A DNA stretch of 64,000 bases from Escherichia coli. Its GTDB lineage: Bacteria; Pseudomonadota; Gammaproteobacteria; Enterobacterales; Enterobacteriaceae. The position numbers and the translations under genes are program-made. Of the stretch, positions 2,521-36,827 are shown piece after piece. The notes beneath the pieces are model-generated. The model ran no database searches, was not told the DNA's origin, and saw only the letters and a list, made by a program, of their open reading frames with translations. Every line of letters begins with the position of its first letter. Position 1 is the first letter of the stretch. The stretch lies in assembly GCF_003790525.1 (NCBI RefSeq), contig NZ_CP033635.1; one strand, given 5' to 3'.

Positions 2521-4754
2521 TAAACTGCCCTCACAATATAATTAAAAGCGATATTGCGCGGTCTGATCGCTATCCATCTGTCTTTTTCATTACTCACCAG
2601 CTTACCGGCTCTGGCTATTGCCCATCTGTCAACTGGTTTTGTGCCGTACAGGATGCCGTTACCGGTTCTGGGTTGATCAGGGGTTATGTTTATGATGTCG
2701 TTATCATGTGATGCAAATGAAATCCCTGCCTGAATATCTGCACCTCCCGCTACGCCGTGGTACGCCTGTATGGCGGTACAAATATATGTTGCTTCCTGTG
2801 TGGATAACAATAAGCGTCCCCTGTCAATCATTCGCAGGTCATCCCATCCACGAATAAATTCCCCGCGCAAATCTGGTAGCCTGAGGTCAGGGTAGGCCAC
2901 CGCCAGTTTTGGGTATTTTGTACGCGTGAATGCGGCACCGTTGCACTGTAACCACCCCTCAGGTGGTCTTGACGAAGGCCACGGAACGGGTACGCCAACT
3001 GGCAGCGTCGAGCCTTCTCCTAAACCAAAGTAATCAAGAATATCTTTTATGCTTTGTTTACCCATGATGACGCGGGCAACAGACGAAAAAACAGGGGCGT
3101 CTGTGATCTGAGCCCAGCGATGAGTGTGGGCTGCCGAGGCTTTGCTGTTGGCAAGGTCATACGCAGCTTTAACAGCTTTTGGTGTGGCCGCCAGCGTTTC
3201 GGAATTGCTGTTTGTGGCGCTGCTTAGCTGTACGATGCCTTTGCGTCCGGTGGTTGCATCCTGTCCTGTATACTTGCTCGTCAGCATATCGTGTAAGGCT
3301 TTAACCGCTTTGGGGGTGGCGGCCTCAGTCTCTGACTCACTGTTTGTGGCACTGCTCAGCTGTACGGTGCCTTTTGCCGTCAGCGAGGCTGATGGCACAC
3401 CTGTTATCTGATTCCACGGGTGGGTGTGGCTGGCGGGTGCTTTACCGGCTGCAAGGTCATATGCAGCCTTGACGGCTCTTGGTGTGGCCGCCAGCGTTTC
3501 GGAATTGCTGTTTGTATCGCTGCTCAGCTGTACGATGCCTTTGCGTCCAGTTGTTGCATCTGTGTTTGTCACCTCCACCCACTCTGACCATGGGCCGTTA
3601 CCGTTAAAGTTTCCGGTAACTGTCCTGATAAATTTTCGTGGCGGATCCCAGCTCGTGTATTCATGCTGGCAGAATCCCCATGCACCAACACGGATGCGTA
3701 ACTCTCCTGCCTTCTCTACAGGATAGTTTCTGTCTGTTCTCGCACCTGAGTCACTCTGCTGGTAATAATCTCCCGCGTCTTCCTTACGCCCCAGAGTGTT
3801 CAGGTCTGTTTCCCCCAGGGATGTTGTTGGCTTCACGAACGCCATGCTCAGTGCATCACTTACTGCCTTCGGTGTGGCCGCCAGTGTTTCGGAATTGCTG
3901 TTTGTGGCGCTGCTCAGCTGTACGATGCCTTTGCGTCCGGTGGTTGCATCCTGTCCTGTATACTTGCTCGTCACCATATCGTGTAAGGCTTTAACCGCTT
4001 TGGGGGTGGCCGCCTCAGTCTCTGACTCACTGTTTGTGGCACTGCTCAGCTGTACGGTGCCTTTTGCCGTCAGCGAGGCTGATGGCACACCAGTTATCTG
4101 ATTCCACGGGTGGGTGTGGCTGGCGGCTGCTTTACCGGCTGCAAGGTCATATGCAGCCTTGACGGCCTTCGGTGTGGCGGCCAGTGTTTCAGAGGTGCTG
4201 TTTGTGGCGCTGCTCAGTTGGGTGAATCCTTTTTCTGTCAGTGTCGCGTCAGGGTGGTTACGGGAACGTGCGTGTTCCGCCATTTTCTCATCAATGTAGT
4301 CCGTGGTCGGCAGAATTGTTGTTGTGTCCATGACCAGTTCCACCACGGCGTCGGAGGTGACGGTGATTACTGCACGGAATATCTGCGCCCGCCCTGAACC
4401 TTCCTCTCTGGTGGGCTTGTAACTTTCAGCGGTATTTCCTACTGCAATCATTGTACCTGTATCATCAAACACACCAATTTCACGCACCCAGAATCCGCCG
4501 GTTTCAGGAGGAATGACCAGTTCGGCGATGAGGCGGTTCGGGTTCTCCGGGTCGGTGAAGACGCGGTTGACAGACTGGCGCCAAACCTCATTGTAAAGCG
4601 ATGTCTGGTTTTTCTGCGGCTGACGAAGCTCTCCATTGCCGTCCCCTACAGCCATGTGCGTAAGGCGTACAGGTCTACCGCCAGGCGCCGTTGTTGCGGC
4701 CAGCTTTGCCAGCCCGATGTCGGTGATAAGGGTTCTGAATTTTCTCGTGCTCAT
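2520..4754 (-). CDS. phage tail fibre protein (P2 gpH-like) with multiple internal repeats
   Basis: 744-aa ORF; motif TGRKGIVQLSSATNS(N/E)SET(L/E)AATPKAVK repeated at least 6 times (phage tail fibre repeat); position between baseplate I and assembly gene. Confidence 0.85.
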   Translation of the reverse strand: MSTRKFRTLITDIGLAKLAATTAPGGRPVRLTHMAVGDGNGELRQPQKNQTSLYNEVWRQSVNRVFTDPENPNRLIAELVIPPETGGFWVREIGVFDDTGTMIAVGNTAESYKPTREEGSGRAQIFRAVITVTSDAVVELVMDTTTILPTTDYIDEKMAEHARSRNHPDATLTEKGFTQLSSATNSTSETLAATPKAVKAAYDLAAGKAAASHTHPWNQITGVPSASLTAKGTVQLSSATNSESETEAATPKAVKALHDMVTSKYTGQDATTGRKGIVQLSSATNSNSETLAATPKAVSDALSMAFVKPTTSLGETDLNTLGRKEDAGDYYQQSDSGARTDRNYPVEKAGELRIRVGAWGFCQHEYTSWDPPRKFIRTVTGNFNGNGPWSEWVEVTNTDATTGRKGIVQLSSDTNSNSETLAATPRAVKAAYDLAAGKAPASHTHPWNQITGVPSASLTAKGTVQLSSATNSESETEAATPKAVKALHDMLTSKYTGQDATTGRKGIVQLSSATNSNSETLAATPKAVKAAYDLANSKASAAHTHRWAQITDAPVFSSVARVIMGKQSIKDILDYFGLGEGSTLPVGVPVPWPSSRPPEGWLQCNGAAFTRTKYPKLAVAYPDLRLPDLRGEFIRGWDDLRMIDRGRLLLSTQEATYICTAIQAYHGVAGGADIQAGISFASHDNDIINITPDQPRTGNGILYGTKPVDRWAIARAGKLVSNEKDRWIAIRPRNIAFNYIVRAV
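3181..3480. repeat. ~300-bp direct repeat unit, copy 1, inside tail fibre gene
   Basis: Near-identical to 3871-4170 (690 bp downstream) by direct comparison of the sequence lines; partial further copies begin at 3481 and 4171. Confidence 0.8.
3871..4170. repeat. ~300-bp direct repeat unit, copy 2, inside tail fibre gene
   Basis: Near-identical to 3181-3480; only a few substitutions seen. Confidence 0.8.
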
Positions 4755-32897: not shown

Positions 32898-34046
32898 ATG
32901 TCCACGTATACCCGGCCTGTCATGCTTTTGCTGTCTGGCCTGCTTTTGTTGACTCTGGCGATTGCGGTGTTAAATACACTCGTGCCGCTTTGGCTCGCCC
33001 AGGAACACATGTCCACATGGCAGGTAGGCGTTGTCAGCTCATCCTATTTTACCGGCAACCTGGTCGGTACATTGCTGACAGGGTATGTCATTAAGCGCAT
33101 TGGCTTTAACCGCAGCTATTATCTGGCCTCCTTCATTTTTGCCGCTGGCTGTGCCGGCCTTGGCCTGATGATTGGATTCTGGAGCTGGTTGGCTTGGCGT
33201 TTTGTCGCCGGCGTCGGCTGTGCCATGATTTGGGTGGTTGTTGAGAGCGCGCTGATGTGCAGTGGGACGTCACGTAACCGTGGGCGTTTGCTTGCTGCGT
33301 ATATGATGGTTTATTACGTGGGAACGTTTTTAGGCCAGTTACTGGTCAGCAAAGTTTCAACCGAGCTGATGTCCGTATTGCCGTGGGTTACAGGTTTGAC
33401 GTTGGCAGGGATCTTACCGCTGTTGTTTACGCGTGTGCTGAATCAGCAGGCTGAAAACCATGATTCGACGTCAATTACGTCAATGCTAAAACTCCGTCAG
33501 GCGCGGCTTGGCGTGAATGGCTGCATTATCTCAGGAATCGTTCTGGGATCTCTATATGGCCTGATGCCGCTGTACCTCAATCACAAAGGGGTGAGCAATG
33601 CCAGCATTGGTTTCTGGATGGCGGTACTGGTCAGTGCGGGTATCCTTGGACAATGGCCGATTGGACGTCTGGCGGATAAGTTTGGTCGACTGCTGGTGTT
33701 GCGTGTTCAGGTCTTTGTCGTCATTCTCGGCAGTATCGCGATGCTTAGCCAGGCGGCGATGGCCCCAGCGTTATTCATCCTCGGTGCCGCTGGCTTTACG
33801 CTATATCCGGTGGCGATGGCATGGGCTTGCGAGAAAGTTGAACATCATCAACTGGTGGCGATGAACCAGGCCTTACTGTTGAGCTATACCGTGGGAAGTC
33901 TGCTTGGCCCGTCATTTACTGCCATGCTAATGCAGAATTTCTCCGATAATTTATTGTTTATCATGATCGCCAGCGTATCGTTTATCTATTTGCTGATGCT
34001 GCTTCGCAACGCCGGTCATACGCCGAAACCCGTTGCTCACGTGTAA
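32898..34046 (+). CDS. ycaD: MFS transporter YcaD
   Basis: 382-aa polytopic membrane protein; conserved position. Confidence 0.9.
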
Positions 34047-34255
34047 ATGAATTAACGCAGAGTGTGAACTTACTGTTTCACACTCTGTTTTTTTGTTTCT
34101 TCTATCTGACTTGCTTTTTTCAAAATTTTATTCGTTTCAAAATAAAATGTGCAGCAGGTTATAATTTTGCATTTCGCTATTTCCGCACTTCTTATTTGCC
34201 GCGCATAATCCCTCGTTTTACAGATGCCCCTTTACTTTTGGCGAAGGATTTGTCT

Positions 34256-35686
34256 ATGGCTGGGAATGTTCAGGAAAAACAGCTGCGATGGTACAACATT
34301 GCGCTGATGTCTTTTATCACTGTCTGGGGTTTTGGCAACGTTGTTAATAACTACGCCAACCAGGGGCTGGTGGTTGTTTTTTCATGGGTGTTTATCTTTG
34401 CGCTCTATTTCACACCTTATGCGCTAATTGTTGGTCAGTTAGGCTCGACCTTCAAAGATGGGAAGGGCGGGGTCAGTACCTGGATTAAACACACGATGGG
34501 ACCCGGACTGGCTTACCTCGCCGCGTGGACCTACTGGGTAGTGCATATTCCCTATCTGGCACAAAAACCCCAGGCAATACTGATTGCGCTCGGTTGGGCG
34601 ATGAAAGGCGACGGTTCGTTAATCAAAGAATATTCAGTCGTAGCGTTACAGGGGTTAACGCTGGTGCTGTTTATCTTCTTTATGTGGGTTGCTTCACGCG
34701 GTATGAAATCGCTGAAAATCGTCGGTTCTGTGGCAGGGATTGCGATGTTTGTTATGTCGCTCCTGTATGTGGCGATGGCGGTAACCGCGCCTGCGATTAC
34801 TGAAGTGCATATTGCGACCACAAACATTACCTGGGAAACGTTCATTCCTCATATCGACTTTACCTACATCACCACTATTTCAATGCTGGTTTTCGCGGTT
34901 GGCGGAGCAGAGAAGATTTCTCCTTACGTTAATCAAACGCGCAACCCAGGAAAAGAATTTCCAAAAGGGATGTTATGCCTGGCGGTGATGGTTGCGGTTT
35001 GTGCCATTCTGGGCTCGCTGGCGATGGGGATGATGTTTGATTCGCGTAATATCCCGGATGACTTAATGACTAACGGTCAGTATTACGCCTTTCAGAAACT
35101 GGGCGAGTATTACAACATGGGTAATACTTTAATGGTGATTTACGCCATTGCGAATACCCTGGGACAAGTAGCTGCGCTGGTATTCTCGATTGATGCGCCG
35201 CTTAAAGTACTATTAGGCGATGCTGATAGCAAATATATTCCAGCCAGTTTATGTCGTACCAACGCTTCTGGTACGCCCGTTAATGGCTATTTTCTGACCC
35301 TGGTGCTGGTGGCGATCCTGATTATGCTGCCGACGCTGGGTATCGGCGATATGAATAATCTCTACAAGTGGTTGCTGAATCTTAACTCGGTGGTGATGCC
35401 ACTACGTTATCTGTGGGTATTTGTTGCATTTATTGCAGTCGTTCGTCTGGCGCAGAAATATAAACCAGAGTATGTCTTTATTCGTAACAGGCCGCTGGCG
35501 ATGACTGTCGGGATCTGGTGTTTTACCTTTACCGCTTTTGCCTGCCTGACAGGGATCTTCCCGAAAATGGAAGCCTTCACTGCAGAGTGGACCTTCCAGT
35601 TAGCGCTGAATGTTGCAACGCCGTTTGTCCTGGTTGGACTGGGGCTGATATTCCCGCTGCTGGCGCGTAAAGCGAATAGTAAATAA
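34256..35686 (+). CDS. ycaM: APC-family amino acid transporter YcaM
   Basis: ORF 34064-35686; start placed at MAGNVQEKQL (476 aa). Confidence 0.85.
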   Translation: MAGNVQEKQLRWYNIALMSFITVWGFGNVVNNYANQGLVVVFSWVFIFALYFTPYALIVGQLGSTFKDGKGGVSTWIKHTMGPGLAYLAAWTYWVVHIPYLAQKPQAILIALGWAMKGDGSLIKEYSVVALQGLTLVLFIFFMWVASRGMKSLKIVGSVAGIAMFVMSLLYVAMAVTAPAITEVHIATTNITWETFIPHIDFTYITTISMLVFAVGGAEKISPYVNQTRNPGKEFPKGMLCLAVMVAVCAILGSLAMGMMFDSRNIPDDLMTNGQYYAFQKLGEYYNMGNTLMVIYAIANTLGQVAALVFSIDAPLKVLLGDADSKYIPASLCRTNASGTPVNGYFLTLVLVAILIMLPTLGIGDMNNLYKWLLNLNSVVMPLRYLWVFVAFIAVVRLAQKYKPEYVFIRNRPLAMTVGIWCFTFTAFACLTGIFPKMEAFTAEWTFQLALNVATPFVLVGLGLIFPLLARKANSK

Positions 35687-35852
35687 TTATTGTGGTCGGT
35701 GACGCTGACTCTGGCAGATCTGACCCGTTTTTACATAATCGAGAAATGCGCGCAAGCCGCAGGACATATACTGGCGGTTTGGGTAATACATTTGGAAGCT
35801 GTGCTGTAAGGGCGCTAGAAATAGAGCCCTGAATTATTTATGCAGCACGGAA

Positions 35853-35883
35853 TAAAAAAGCGGCAACTCAATAAAGTTGCCGC
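35853..35883 (-). terminator. pflA rho-independent terminator
   Basis: GCGGCAACT-caataa-AGTTGCCGC stem with a U-run on the minus strand, just downstream of the pflA stop. Confidence 0.6.
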
Positions 35884-35895
35884 TTTACGGGGAAA

Positions 35896-36636
35896 TTAGA
35901 ACATTACCTTATGACCGTACTGCTCAAGAATGCTTTTCACGCGTTCCATGGTCTCTTTCTTCGGTGGTTTAACACCATCAAGTTTGTATTCTTCACCCAT
36001 CGCCACCCATTTGTGTTTGCCCAGCTCGTGGTAGGGGAGAAGCTCGATTTTCTCAACGTTGCCCATATCACGGGTAAATTCACCGAGGCGATGCGCTGAA
36101 TCGTCATCGTCAGACCAGCCAGGGACAACAACGTAGCGGATCCACACCTTAACATCTTTGTTCGCCAGATATTTAGCGAACTCCAGTGTACGGTGGTTAG
36201 ATACGCCAACCAGATTCTGGTGAATTTCGTCGTTCATCTGTTTGAGATCGAGCATTACCAGGTCGGTTACTTCCAGCAGTTCATCAATCACCGGATCGTA
36301 ACGACGAACAAAACCGTTGGTATCCAGACAGGTATGAATGCCTTCTTTTTTGCAGGCGCGGAACCAGTCACGAACAAACTCAGCTTGCAGGATTGCTTCA
36401 CCGCCGGATGCGGTAACGCCGCCGCCGGAAGCGTTCATAAAGTGGCGATAGGTCACCACTTCCTTCATCAAATCTTCAACGGTAACTTCTTTACCGCCAT
36501 GCGTGTCCCAGGTGTCGCGGTTATGACAATACAGGCAGCGCATCAGGCAGCCCTGGAAAAAGGTGATAAAGCGAATACCCGGGCCGTCTACGGTTCCACA
36601 GGATTCAAAGGAGTGAATGCGACCAATAACTGACAT
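35896..36636 (-). CDS. pflA: pyruvate formate-lyase activating enzyme (radical SAM)
   Basis: ORF 35896-36663; start at [20 protein letters not shown] (246 aa); CxxxCxxC motif. Confidence 0.95.
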
Positions 36637-36827
36637 TGCGGTGTTTCTCCAGATGTGGCCCATCTGAGGCCGTGTTGGTGCGCAGCTCGAAGGCTACGTC
36701 GAGTCTGTTTTGGCAGTCACCTTAAAGTATAGATAGCTGACAAAAAAGGCTCTCGTGCTAAAAAAGGCCCCACTTTCGTGGAGCCTTTATTGTACGCTTT
36801 TTACTGTACGATTTCAGTCAAATCTAA

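What the first reader, a model, noticed from the sequence alone, without database searches (positions are those of the whole stretch)
35687..35895. ycaN-ycaK appear to be absent between ycaM and pflA
From memory of the E. coli K-12 map, a LysR-type regulator gene (ycaN) and ycaK lie between ycaM and pflA. Here ycaM ends at 35686 and pflA ends at 35896, with only a 209-bp gap containing the pflA terminator. This suggests a lineage-specific deletion, or an insertion in K-12.
Basis: established knowledge. Interest (0 to 1): 0.3.

Follow-up and report, generated by a model that had tools for sequence, protein, structure and literature searches.

The report
Old ycaN-ycaK deletion scar in E. coli
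Between ycaM and pflA this strain (E. coli SMS-3-5) lacks the K-12 genes ycaN and ycaK, and the 209-bp gap still holds the tail of ycaN and the last codons of ycaK, so it is a common, already annotated deletion scar and not a K-12 insertion.

Summary
ycaM ends at 35686, pflA ends at 35896, and K-12 MG1655 carries ycaN and ycaK between them. The window is E. coli SMS-3-5, matched at 100% identity.

The gap holds more than a terminator:
- 35687-35799 (- strand) is the last 36-37 codons plus stop of ycaN, 110/113 nt identical to K-12-type ycaN. RefSeq already marks it as a pseudogene.
- 35800-35853 is a diverged relic of the ycaK stop region and the ycaK-pflA spacer.
- 35857-35886 is the pflA terminator hairpin.

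So about 1.47 kb was deleted. K-12 did not gain these genes.

The deletion is not specific to this strain. Among 5,426 complete E. coli genomes:
- 1,021 share this junction, including O157:H7 and O145.
- About 3,320-3,340 keep ycaN-ycaK.
- 1,047, including Nissle, NU14 and JJ1887, also lack ycaM.

E. albertii and three other non-coli Escherichia genomes carry similar scars. Citrobacter, Salmonella and Kluyvera have ycaM next to pflA with no ycaN or ycaK homologue (some have other inserts there). Pseudocitrobacter and one unidentified enterobacterial contig carry ycaN-ycaK homologues at the same locus.

No IS element or long repeat flanks the breakpoints, so illegitimate recombination is inferred. 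This is ordinary, known gene-content polymorphism and of low interest.

The parts
34256..35686 (+). ycaM (APC-family permease), intact, 476 aa. Its stop codon directly abuts the ycaN remnant.
   Evidence: RefSeq annotation of SMS-3-5 moved to window coordinates. tblastn gives 99.6% identity to K-12-type YcaM over residues 1-476.
35687..35799 (-). 3' remnant of ycaN (LysR-type regulator): the last 36-37 codons plus stop, with no N-terminal part, promoter or start codon. RefSeq pseudogene ECSMS35_RS28260 covers 35687-35797.
   Evidence: annotated 'incomplete; missing N-terminus', named LysR family in strain 1613. (YcaN residues 267-302, 97.2% aa). (110/113 nt identical to the long alleles L002 and L049). 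(translation SFQMYYPNRQYMSCGLRAFLDYVKTGQICQSQRHRPQ*).
35799..35800 (.). Deletion junction. About 1,476 bp of the K-12-type allele (roughly L002:2801-4276, i.e. ycaN codons 1-265, the ycaN-ycaK divergent promoter region and nearly all of ycaK) is missing here.
   Evidence: No IS element and no long direct repeat at the two breakpoints of the long allele.
35800..35853 (+). Relic of the last codons and stop of ycaK (TGTGCTGTAAG against K-12 TGCACTATAAG), followed by a strongly diverged ycaK-pflA spacer.
   Evidence: Alignments. Shuffle tests: window vs E. albertii 0/2000 shuffles reach the score, window vs L006/L007 2/2000 and 0/2000, K-12 vs L005/L006/L007/L008 0-1/2000, window vs K-12 directly 45/2000.
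35857..35886 (-). pflA intrinsic terminator: a 13-bp stem with a 4-nt loop followed by a T-run on the - strand. It is the same hairpin that lies between ycaK and pflA in K-12.
   Evidence: terminator scan. (RNA fold -20.3 kcal/mol, z = -6.35). Identical sequence in the long allele.
35896..36636 (-). pflA (pyruvate formate-lyase 1 activating enzyme), intact, 246 aa.
   Evidence: 99.2% aa identity to K-12-type PflA.

Best explanation
The 209-bp ycaM-pflA gap is the scar of a roughly 1.47-kb deletion. The deletion removed most of the divergently transcribed pair ycaN (LysR regulator) and ycaK (flavodoxin-like NAD(P)H oxidoreductase) from an ancestral Escherichia arrangement ycaM-ycaN-ycaK-pflA.

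Shown:
- Both ends of the lost block survive: the ycaN tail on the - strand, and the ycaK stop region with its spacer.
- The neighbouring genes and the pflA terminator are intact.
- The same junction is a common allele in E. coli.

Inferred:
- The deletion arose by illegitimate (microhomology or slippage type) recombination, not by an IS element or a site-specific recombinase.
- It is old. The scar and its spacer haplotype are shared with E. albertii, and the scar keeps an ancestral base that present E. coli long alleles have lost.
- Consequences in carriers would be loss of YcaN-dependent regulation of neighbouring genes (ycaC, ycaD and focA, as reported for K-12), loss of YcaK, and loss of the convergent ycaM/ycaN transcription overlap. 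ycaM and pflA expression signals are left in place.
For: - Remnants. The ycaN tail is 110/113 nt and 35/36 aa identical to the K-12 type and is annotated as a truncated pseudogene in RefSeq. The ycaK stop and spacer relic is linked to K-12 through a chain of alignments with outgroups, backed by shuffle tests.
- K-12 MG1655 gene order is ycaM-ycaN-ycaK-pflA.
- Allele counts in 5,426 complete genomes: long allele 3,318-3,341, this junction 1,021, ycaD-pflA direct 1,047.
- E. albertii and three other non-coli Escherichia species representatives have ycaN-tail scars in the same place.
- Full ycaN-ycaK homologues sit at the same locus in Pseudocitrobacter corydidari and in an unidentified enterobacterial contig.
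- There is no IS element or long repeat at the breakpoints. A 13-nt inverted repeat in ycaN (ssDNA fold -11.4 kcal/mol, z = -4.3) lies exactly where the left breakpoints of the different Escherichia scars fall.
- The scar has GGGTAATA, as in the outgroups and the divergent long allele L047, where E. coli long alleles have GGATAATA.
- YcaN function in K-12 comes from PMC9068703. ycaM-ycaN is listed as a convergent overlap in PMC12288877.
Against: - The first 99 nt of the ycaN remnant are identical between the short and long E. coli alleles. That fits a recent origin, or later homogenisation by recombination, better than long independent decay.
- The direct alignment of the 54-nt right-hand relic to K-12 is weak (45/2000 shuffles reach it). 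Its homology rests on intermediates.
- The junctions of L005, L006 and L007 differ from the window type by 10-40 bp. One event and several events cannot be told apart.
- Functional consequences are extrapolated from K-12 data and were not tested in this strain.
Confidence: 0.9

Rival explanations
1. Insertion in K-12. The short allele is the original state, and ycaN-ycaK were inserted between ycaM and pflA in the K-12, A and B1 lineages.
For: Citrobacter, Salmonella (arizonae, diarizonae), Kluyvera and Yokenella show no ycaN or ycaK homologue between ycaM and pflA; in many the two genes are only 50-160 bp apart, in others unrelated DNA of 0.7 to more than 5 kb lies between them. All four non-coli Escherichia representatives retrieved lack the intact genes.
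Against: The short allele contains an in-frame 36-codon ycaN tail and a ycaK stop relic, which an empty target site cannot have. The outgroup Escherichia carry decayed ycaN tails too, so they also descend from a long allele. No close external donor exists: the best non-E. coli YcaN is only 85% identical.
Confidence: 0.03
2. A recent deletion private to SMS-3-5 or its clone, or an assembly artefact.
For: The last ~430 nt of ycaM in SMS-3-5 are unusually divergent, about 90% identical to other E. coli. This shows strain-specific recombination close to the site.
Against: The identical junction is present in 1,021 complete genomes, including O157:H7 and O145 strains that lack the divergent ycaM end. 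The window equals the finished SMS-3-5 chromosome.
Confidence: 0.01
3. Recurrent independent deletions. The scars of E. coli E/F, E. albertii, L005, L006/L007 and the larger B2-type deletion are separate events focused on a fragile spot, not one old allele.
For: Left junctions differ: about L002:2790 in L006/L007, about 2800 in the window and E. albertii, about 2837 in L005. All lie at a stable inverted repeat in ycaN. A clearly separate deletion that also removes ycaM exists in 1,047 genomes. The ycaM-pflA interval varies from 50 bp to more than 5 kb in other genera, and 'E. coli' E69 carries EAL/GGDEF genes there.
Against: The right junctions of all scars fall within about 10-15 bp of the ycaK stop codon, which is unlikely for independent events in a ~650-bp target. 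The window and E. albertii share both the junction and the spacer haplotype.
Confidence: 0.3
4. Re-acquisition. The ancestor of E. coli already had the scar, and groups A/B1/C regained intact ycaN-ycaK by homologous recombination from an Escherichia lineage that had kept them.
For: Every non-coli Escherichia representative retrieved, and the E and F strains, have the scar, while the intact genes were seen in K-12, B, O111, O121 and O113-type strains. From general knowledge of E. coli phylogeny (not tested here), those are the later-branching groups A and B1.
Against: ycaM and pflA flanks of long-allele strains are ordinary E. coli sequence, 98-99% identical to short-allele and B2 strains. No donor with near-identical genes was found outside E. 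coli and Shigella. Phylogroups were not assigned computationally, and E. fergusonii was not sampled.
Confidence: 0.12

Closest known systems
RefSeq pseudogene ECSMS35_RS28260 of E. coli SMS-3-5, and the equivalent 'LysR family transcriptional regulator, incomplete' features in O157:H7 and other strains
   Same: It is the same object: 111 bp on the - strand directly after the ycaM stop, flagged 'partial; missing N-terminus'.
   Different: In SMS-3-5 the annotation names it only 'hypothetical protein'. It does not note the ycaK relic, the junction or the population distribution.
K-12 ycaN-ycaK divergent gene pair (b0900/b0901)
   Same: The remnant is 110/113 nt identical to the 3' end of ycaN. 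The spacer and terminator downstream of ycaK are retained.
   Different: About 1.47 kb is missing: ycaN codons 1-265, the shared promoter region and nearly all of ycaK. No functional product can be made.
B2-type allele (Nissle 1917, NU14, JJ1887): ycaD directly next to pflA
   Same: It is another loss of ycaN-ycaK at the same locus that keeps the pflA terminator.
   Different: It also removes ycaM and has different breakpoints, with 96 bp between ycaD and pflA. It leaves no ycaN tail.
K-12-specific segments ('K-islands') from the K-12 vs O157:H7 genome comparison (Perna et al. 2001; recalled from memory, not checked here)
   Same: A short block is present in K-12 and absent in O157:H7 at an otherwise collinear backbone position. 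O157:H7 strains have exactly this junction.
   Different: Here the polarity can be read from the remnants. The block was lost from the O157/SMS-3-5 type and was not gained by K-12.

Membership tests
ycaN (LysR-type regulator) pseudogene remnant | Sequence homology to ycaN in the syntenic position, convergent with ycaM and with abutting stop codons | tested here: met
   110/113 nt and 35/36 aa identical to K-12-type YcaN residues 267-302, with the stop codon directly after the ycaM stop.
ycaN (LysR-type regulator) pseudogene remnant | Loss of the parts needed for function (N-terminal HTH domain, most of the substrate-binding domain, start codon, promoter) | tested here: met
   Only residues 267-302 of 302 are detectable, and no YcaN N-terminal match exists anywhere in the locus. 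RefSeq flags it 'missing N-terminus'.
ycaK (flavodoxin-like NAD(P)H oxidoreductase) remnant | Detectable homology to the 3' end of ycaK and its downstream spacer | tested here: inconclusive
   The direct window vs K-12 alignment is weak (45/2000 shuffles reach it). Homology is supported through intermediates: window vs E. albertii 0/2000, window vs L006/L007 2/2000 and 0/2000, K-12 vs L006/L007 0/2000. No protein-level match was found.
Rho-independent terminator (pflA) | G+C-rich hairpin followed by a U-run on the transcribed strand, directly after the stop codon | tested here: met
   A 13-bp stem, 4-nt loop and TTTTTTATT tail on the - strand, 9 nt after the pflA stop. The RNA fold is -20.3 kcal/mol with z = -6.35. 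Termination itself was not measured.
IS- or integrase-mediated excision | IS ends, target-site duplications or att-like direct repeats at the breakpoints | tested here: not met
   No direct repeat links the two breakpoint regions of the long allele, and there are no transposase or integrase genes in the block. IS insertions in ycaN exist in other strains but are separate events.
Known structured RNA in the gap | A match to an Rfam family at or above its gathering score | tested here: not met
   Only two sub-threshold chance-level hits on the terminator hairpin, with E = 0.46 and 0.88.

The most novel reading that the evidence does not exclude
The scar is an old allele that crosses species boundaries. 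E. coli E/F strains and E. albertii share the same junction and spacer haplotype, while the K-12-type spacer resembles that of other Escherichia species. If so, intact and deleted ycaN-ycaK alleles have either coexisted since before the Escherichia species split, or have been exchanged between species by homologous recombination. The intact genes would then survive only in part of E. coli.
Probability: 0.35. Interest if true: 0.3.

Novelty: already known. Interest (0 to 1): 0.1.

Why it matters
It matters little beyond bookkeeping.

- YcaN is a regulator characterised only in K-12 and is reported there to affect ycaC, ycaD and focA (PMC9068703). It and YcaK are absent from about 38% of complete E. 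coli genomes, including O157:H7 and the B2 pathogens. K-12 regulatory findings for this locus therefore do not transfer to those strains.
- The three alleles could serve as a simple lineage marker.
- The locus is a small, clean example of recurrent gene loss at one site, with remnants that reveal the direction of change.

Tried and rejected
- Rfam scan of 35400-36200: only chance-level hits on the terminator.
- Search for direct repeats, IS ends or att sites at the breakpoints of the long allele: none found, only an inverted repeat in ycaN.
- Promoter scan of the gap: one weak match, no more than expected by chance.
- YcaN homologues at 84-94% identity (P0016, P0102, P0107, P0111), followed as possible intermediate or donor lineages. 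They turned out to be E. coli copies with internal deletions, IS insertions or frameshifted or short assemblies.
- PADLOC search of the two large ORFs that replace pflA downstream of ycaM in L022: no defence-system match.
- Origin of the B2-type junction (from the short or the long allele): the 8 nt between the two terminators are too short to decide.
- Literature search for a description of this polymorphism: only the K-12 YcaN study and an excludon list were found.
- E. fergusonii could not be examined.

Full report
**Identity and observation.** Window 34000-36700 is 100% identical to the finished chromosome of E. coli SMS-3-5 (NC_010498.1). RefSeq annotation of that record, moved to window coordinates, gives dmsC, ycaC, ycaD, ycaM (34256-35686, +), a 111-bp truncated pseudogene (35687-35797, -), pflA (35896-36636, -), pflB and focA. 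The raw sequence and ORF list agree. K-12 MG1655 has ycaD-ycaM-ycaN-ycaK-pflA-pflB.

**Size of the missing block.** A K-12-type allele (L002) aligns collinearly up to window 35799 and again from 35840. Between these points 1,511 bp of the long allele face 40 bp of the window, a net difference of 1,471 bp.

**What the gap contains.**
- 35687-35799 on the - strand translates to SFQMYYPNRQYMSCGLRAFLDYVKTGQICQSQRHRPQ*. This is YcaN residues 267-302 at 97% identity. At the nucleotide level it is 110/113 identical to two different long alleles. In other strains RefSeq names the same feature 'LysR family transcriptional regulator, incomplete, missing N-terminus'.
- The 40 bp that looked like filler, plus the next 14 bp (35800-35853), are homologous to the last codons and stop of ycaK and to the ycaK-pflA spacer.
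  - The direct match to K-12 is weak (45/2000 shuffles reach it).
  - The match is solid through intermediates. Window vs E. albertii gives 0/2000. Window vs two other Escherichia species gives 2/2000 and 0/2000. Those species vs K-12 give 0-1/2000.
- 35857-35886 is the pflA terminator hairpin. It is identical to the one in K-12 and folds at -20.3 kcal/mol with z = -6.35.
- Rfam finds nothing else in the gap.

**Direction of change.** Pieces of both ends of the ycaN-ycaK block are still present and the ycaN tail is still in frame. The short allele must therefore descend from a long one. This is a deletion, not a K-12 insertion.

**Distribution in E. coli.** Among 5,426 complete genomes:
- 3,318-3,341 carry the 1.5-kb ycaN-ycaK segment, including K-12, B, O111, O121 and O113 strains.
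- 1,021 carry the window-type junction as one uninterrupted match, including O157:H7 and O145.
- 1,047 carry a third allele in which ycaD lies 96 bp from pflA and ycaM is missing too, including Nissle 1917, NU14 and JJ1887.

These three classes account for 5,409 of the 5,426 genomes, taking the higher long-allele count. Sporadic IS insertions in ycaN also exist.

**Outgroups.** One scan of species-representative genomes with YcaM, followed by tblastn, gave the following.
- E. albertii and three other non-coli Escherichia representatives (L005-L008) have ycaM, a decayed ycaN tail and pflA. None has intact ycaN or ycaK.
- Citrobacter, Salmonella (arizonae, diarizonae), Kluyvera, Yokenella and Pluralibacter have ycaM and pflA with no trace of ycaN or ycaK. 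The distance between the two genes is 50-160 bp in many and 0.7 to more than 5 kb, filled with other DNA, in some.
- YcaN's nearest non-E. coli homologues are patchy.
  - Pseudocitrobacter corydidari has ycaD, a ycaN-like gene (79%), a ycaK-like gene (67%), two extra genes and pflA, but no ycaM.
  - An unidentified enterobacterial contig has the full pflA-ycaK(68%)-ycaN(85%)-ycaM(96%) order.

The pair is therefore older than E. coli at this locus and has been lost repeatedly. The site is generally variable. In 'E. coli' E69 (a separate GTDB species) EAL and GGDEF genes follow ycaM instead.

**Mechanism (inferred).** The breakpoints of the long allele carry no IS element, integrase or direct repeat. 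By eye there is only imperfect microhomology (GATcTGGaAG against GATaTGGtAG). A 13-nt inverted repeat in ycaN (L002:2793-2828; ssDNA fold -11.4 kcal/mol, z = -4.3) lies exactly where the left junctions of the different Escherichia scars fall:
- about position 2790 in L006 and L007;
- about 2800 in the window and E. albertii;
- about 2837 in L005.

All right junctions lie within about 10-15 bp of the ycaK stop. This fits slippage or illegitimate recombination. It is compatible either with one old event followed by junction erosion, or with a fragile spot hit several times.

**Age (unresolved).**

For an old allele:
- The window and E. albertii share the junction and the spacer haplotype.
- The scar keeps GGGTAATA, as in all outgroups and the divergent long allele L047, where E. 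coli long alleles have GGATAATA.

For recent origin or homogenisation:
- The first 99 nt of the remnant are identical in short and long E. coli alleles.
- The ycaM and pflA flanks of all three alleles are ordinary E. coli sequence.

**Consequences (inferred from K-12 literature).** In K-12, YcaN is a LysR regulator whose deletion changes expression of the neighbouring ycaC, ycaD and focA. That study detected the ycaN-ycaK-ycaM cluster in the E. coli K-12 and Shigella boydii genomes (PMC9068703). ycaM-ycaN is listed among convergent overlapping transcription pairs (PMC12288877). Carriers of the scar lack the regulator, the YcaK oxidoreductase and that overlap. They keep ycaM, pflA and the pflA terminator intact.

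**Verdict.** The 'K-12 insertion' alternative is rejected for the E. coli timescale. The feature is a common, already annotated gene-content polymorphism and of low interest. The only mildly novel thread is the cross-species sharing of the scar.

Noticed in passing
window 35257-35686 (last ~430 nt of ycaM): In SMS-3-5 this part of ycaM is only about 88-94% identical to other E. coli, both short-allele and long-allele strains. The first ~1,000 nt are 97-100% identical and the ycaN remnant just downstream is nearly identical. It looks like a short imported recombination tract ending near the ycaM stop.
   Followed up: partly
L022:7432-12224 (CP089930.1, 'E. coli' E69, a separate GTDB species representative): Downstream of ycaM there is no ycaN, ycaK or pflA within 6 kb. 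Instead there is AT-rich DNA and two ORFs that resemble an EAL c-di-GMP phosphodiesterase (782 aa) and a GGDEF diguanylate cyclase (446 aa). So the same site holds different cargo. There are no PADLOC hits.
   Followed up: partly
L010, L012, L032, L041 (~5 kb); L014, L015, L020, L033 (0.7-0.95 kb), between ycaM and pflA: Several Citrobacter, Salmonella arizonae and Kluyvera genomes carry unrelated inserts of 0.7 to more than 5 kb between ycaM and pflA, while their relatives have 50-160 bp. The contents were not examined.
   Followed up: no
L046:3217-6930 (Pseudocitrobacter corydidari CP087880.1): ycaN-like and ycaK-like genes sit between ycaD and pflA together with a second LysR gene and a choloylglycine-hydrolase-family gene. 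ycaM is absent.
   Followed up: partly
L047 (Logan SRR26188688 contig, 2,081 bp): An unidentified enterobacterium has the complete pflA-ycaK-ycaN-ycaM order but uneven divergence from E. coli: YcaM 96%, YcaN 85% and YcaK only 68% aa identity.
   Followed up: partly
L003:2548-2643 (Nissle 1917) and 1,047 genomes: A separate, larger deletion allele joins the ycaD terminator to the pflA terminator with only about 8 nt (CTGTGCAC) between them, removing ycaM, ycaN and ycaK. Whether it arose from the long or the short allele could not be decided.
   Followed up: partly
L002:2793-2828 (within ycaN of the long allele; the first 7 nt of its 5' arm survive at window 35793-35799): A 13-nt inverted repeat forms a stable DNA hairpin (-11.4 kcal/mol, z = -4.3). 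It coincides with the left deletion breakpoints seen in different Escherichia species.
   Followed up: partly
window 34064-35686: The mechanical ORF for ycaM starts at a GTG at 34064 (540 aa). The annotated and conserved protein starts at the ATG at 34256 (476 aa).
   Followed up: yes
H31 (NZ_CP060748.1) and L050 (GCA_037023045.1): Some long-allele strains have ycaN independently disrupted by an IS1 or an IS3-family insertion. This is further, separate inactivation of the same gene.
   Followed up: no
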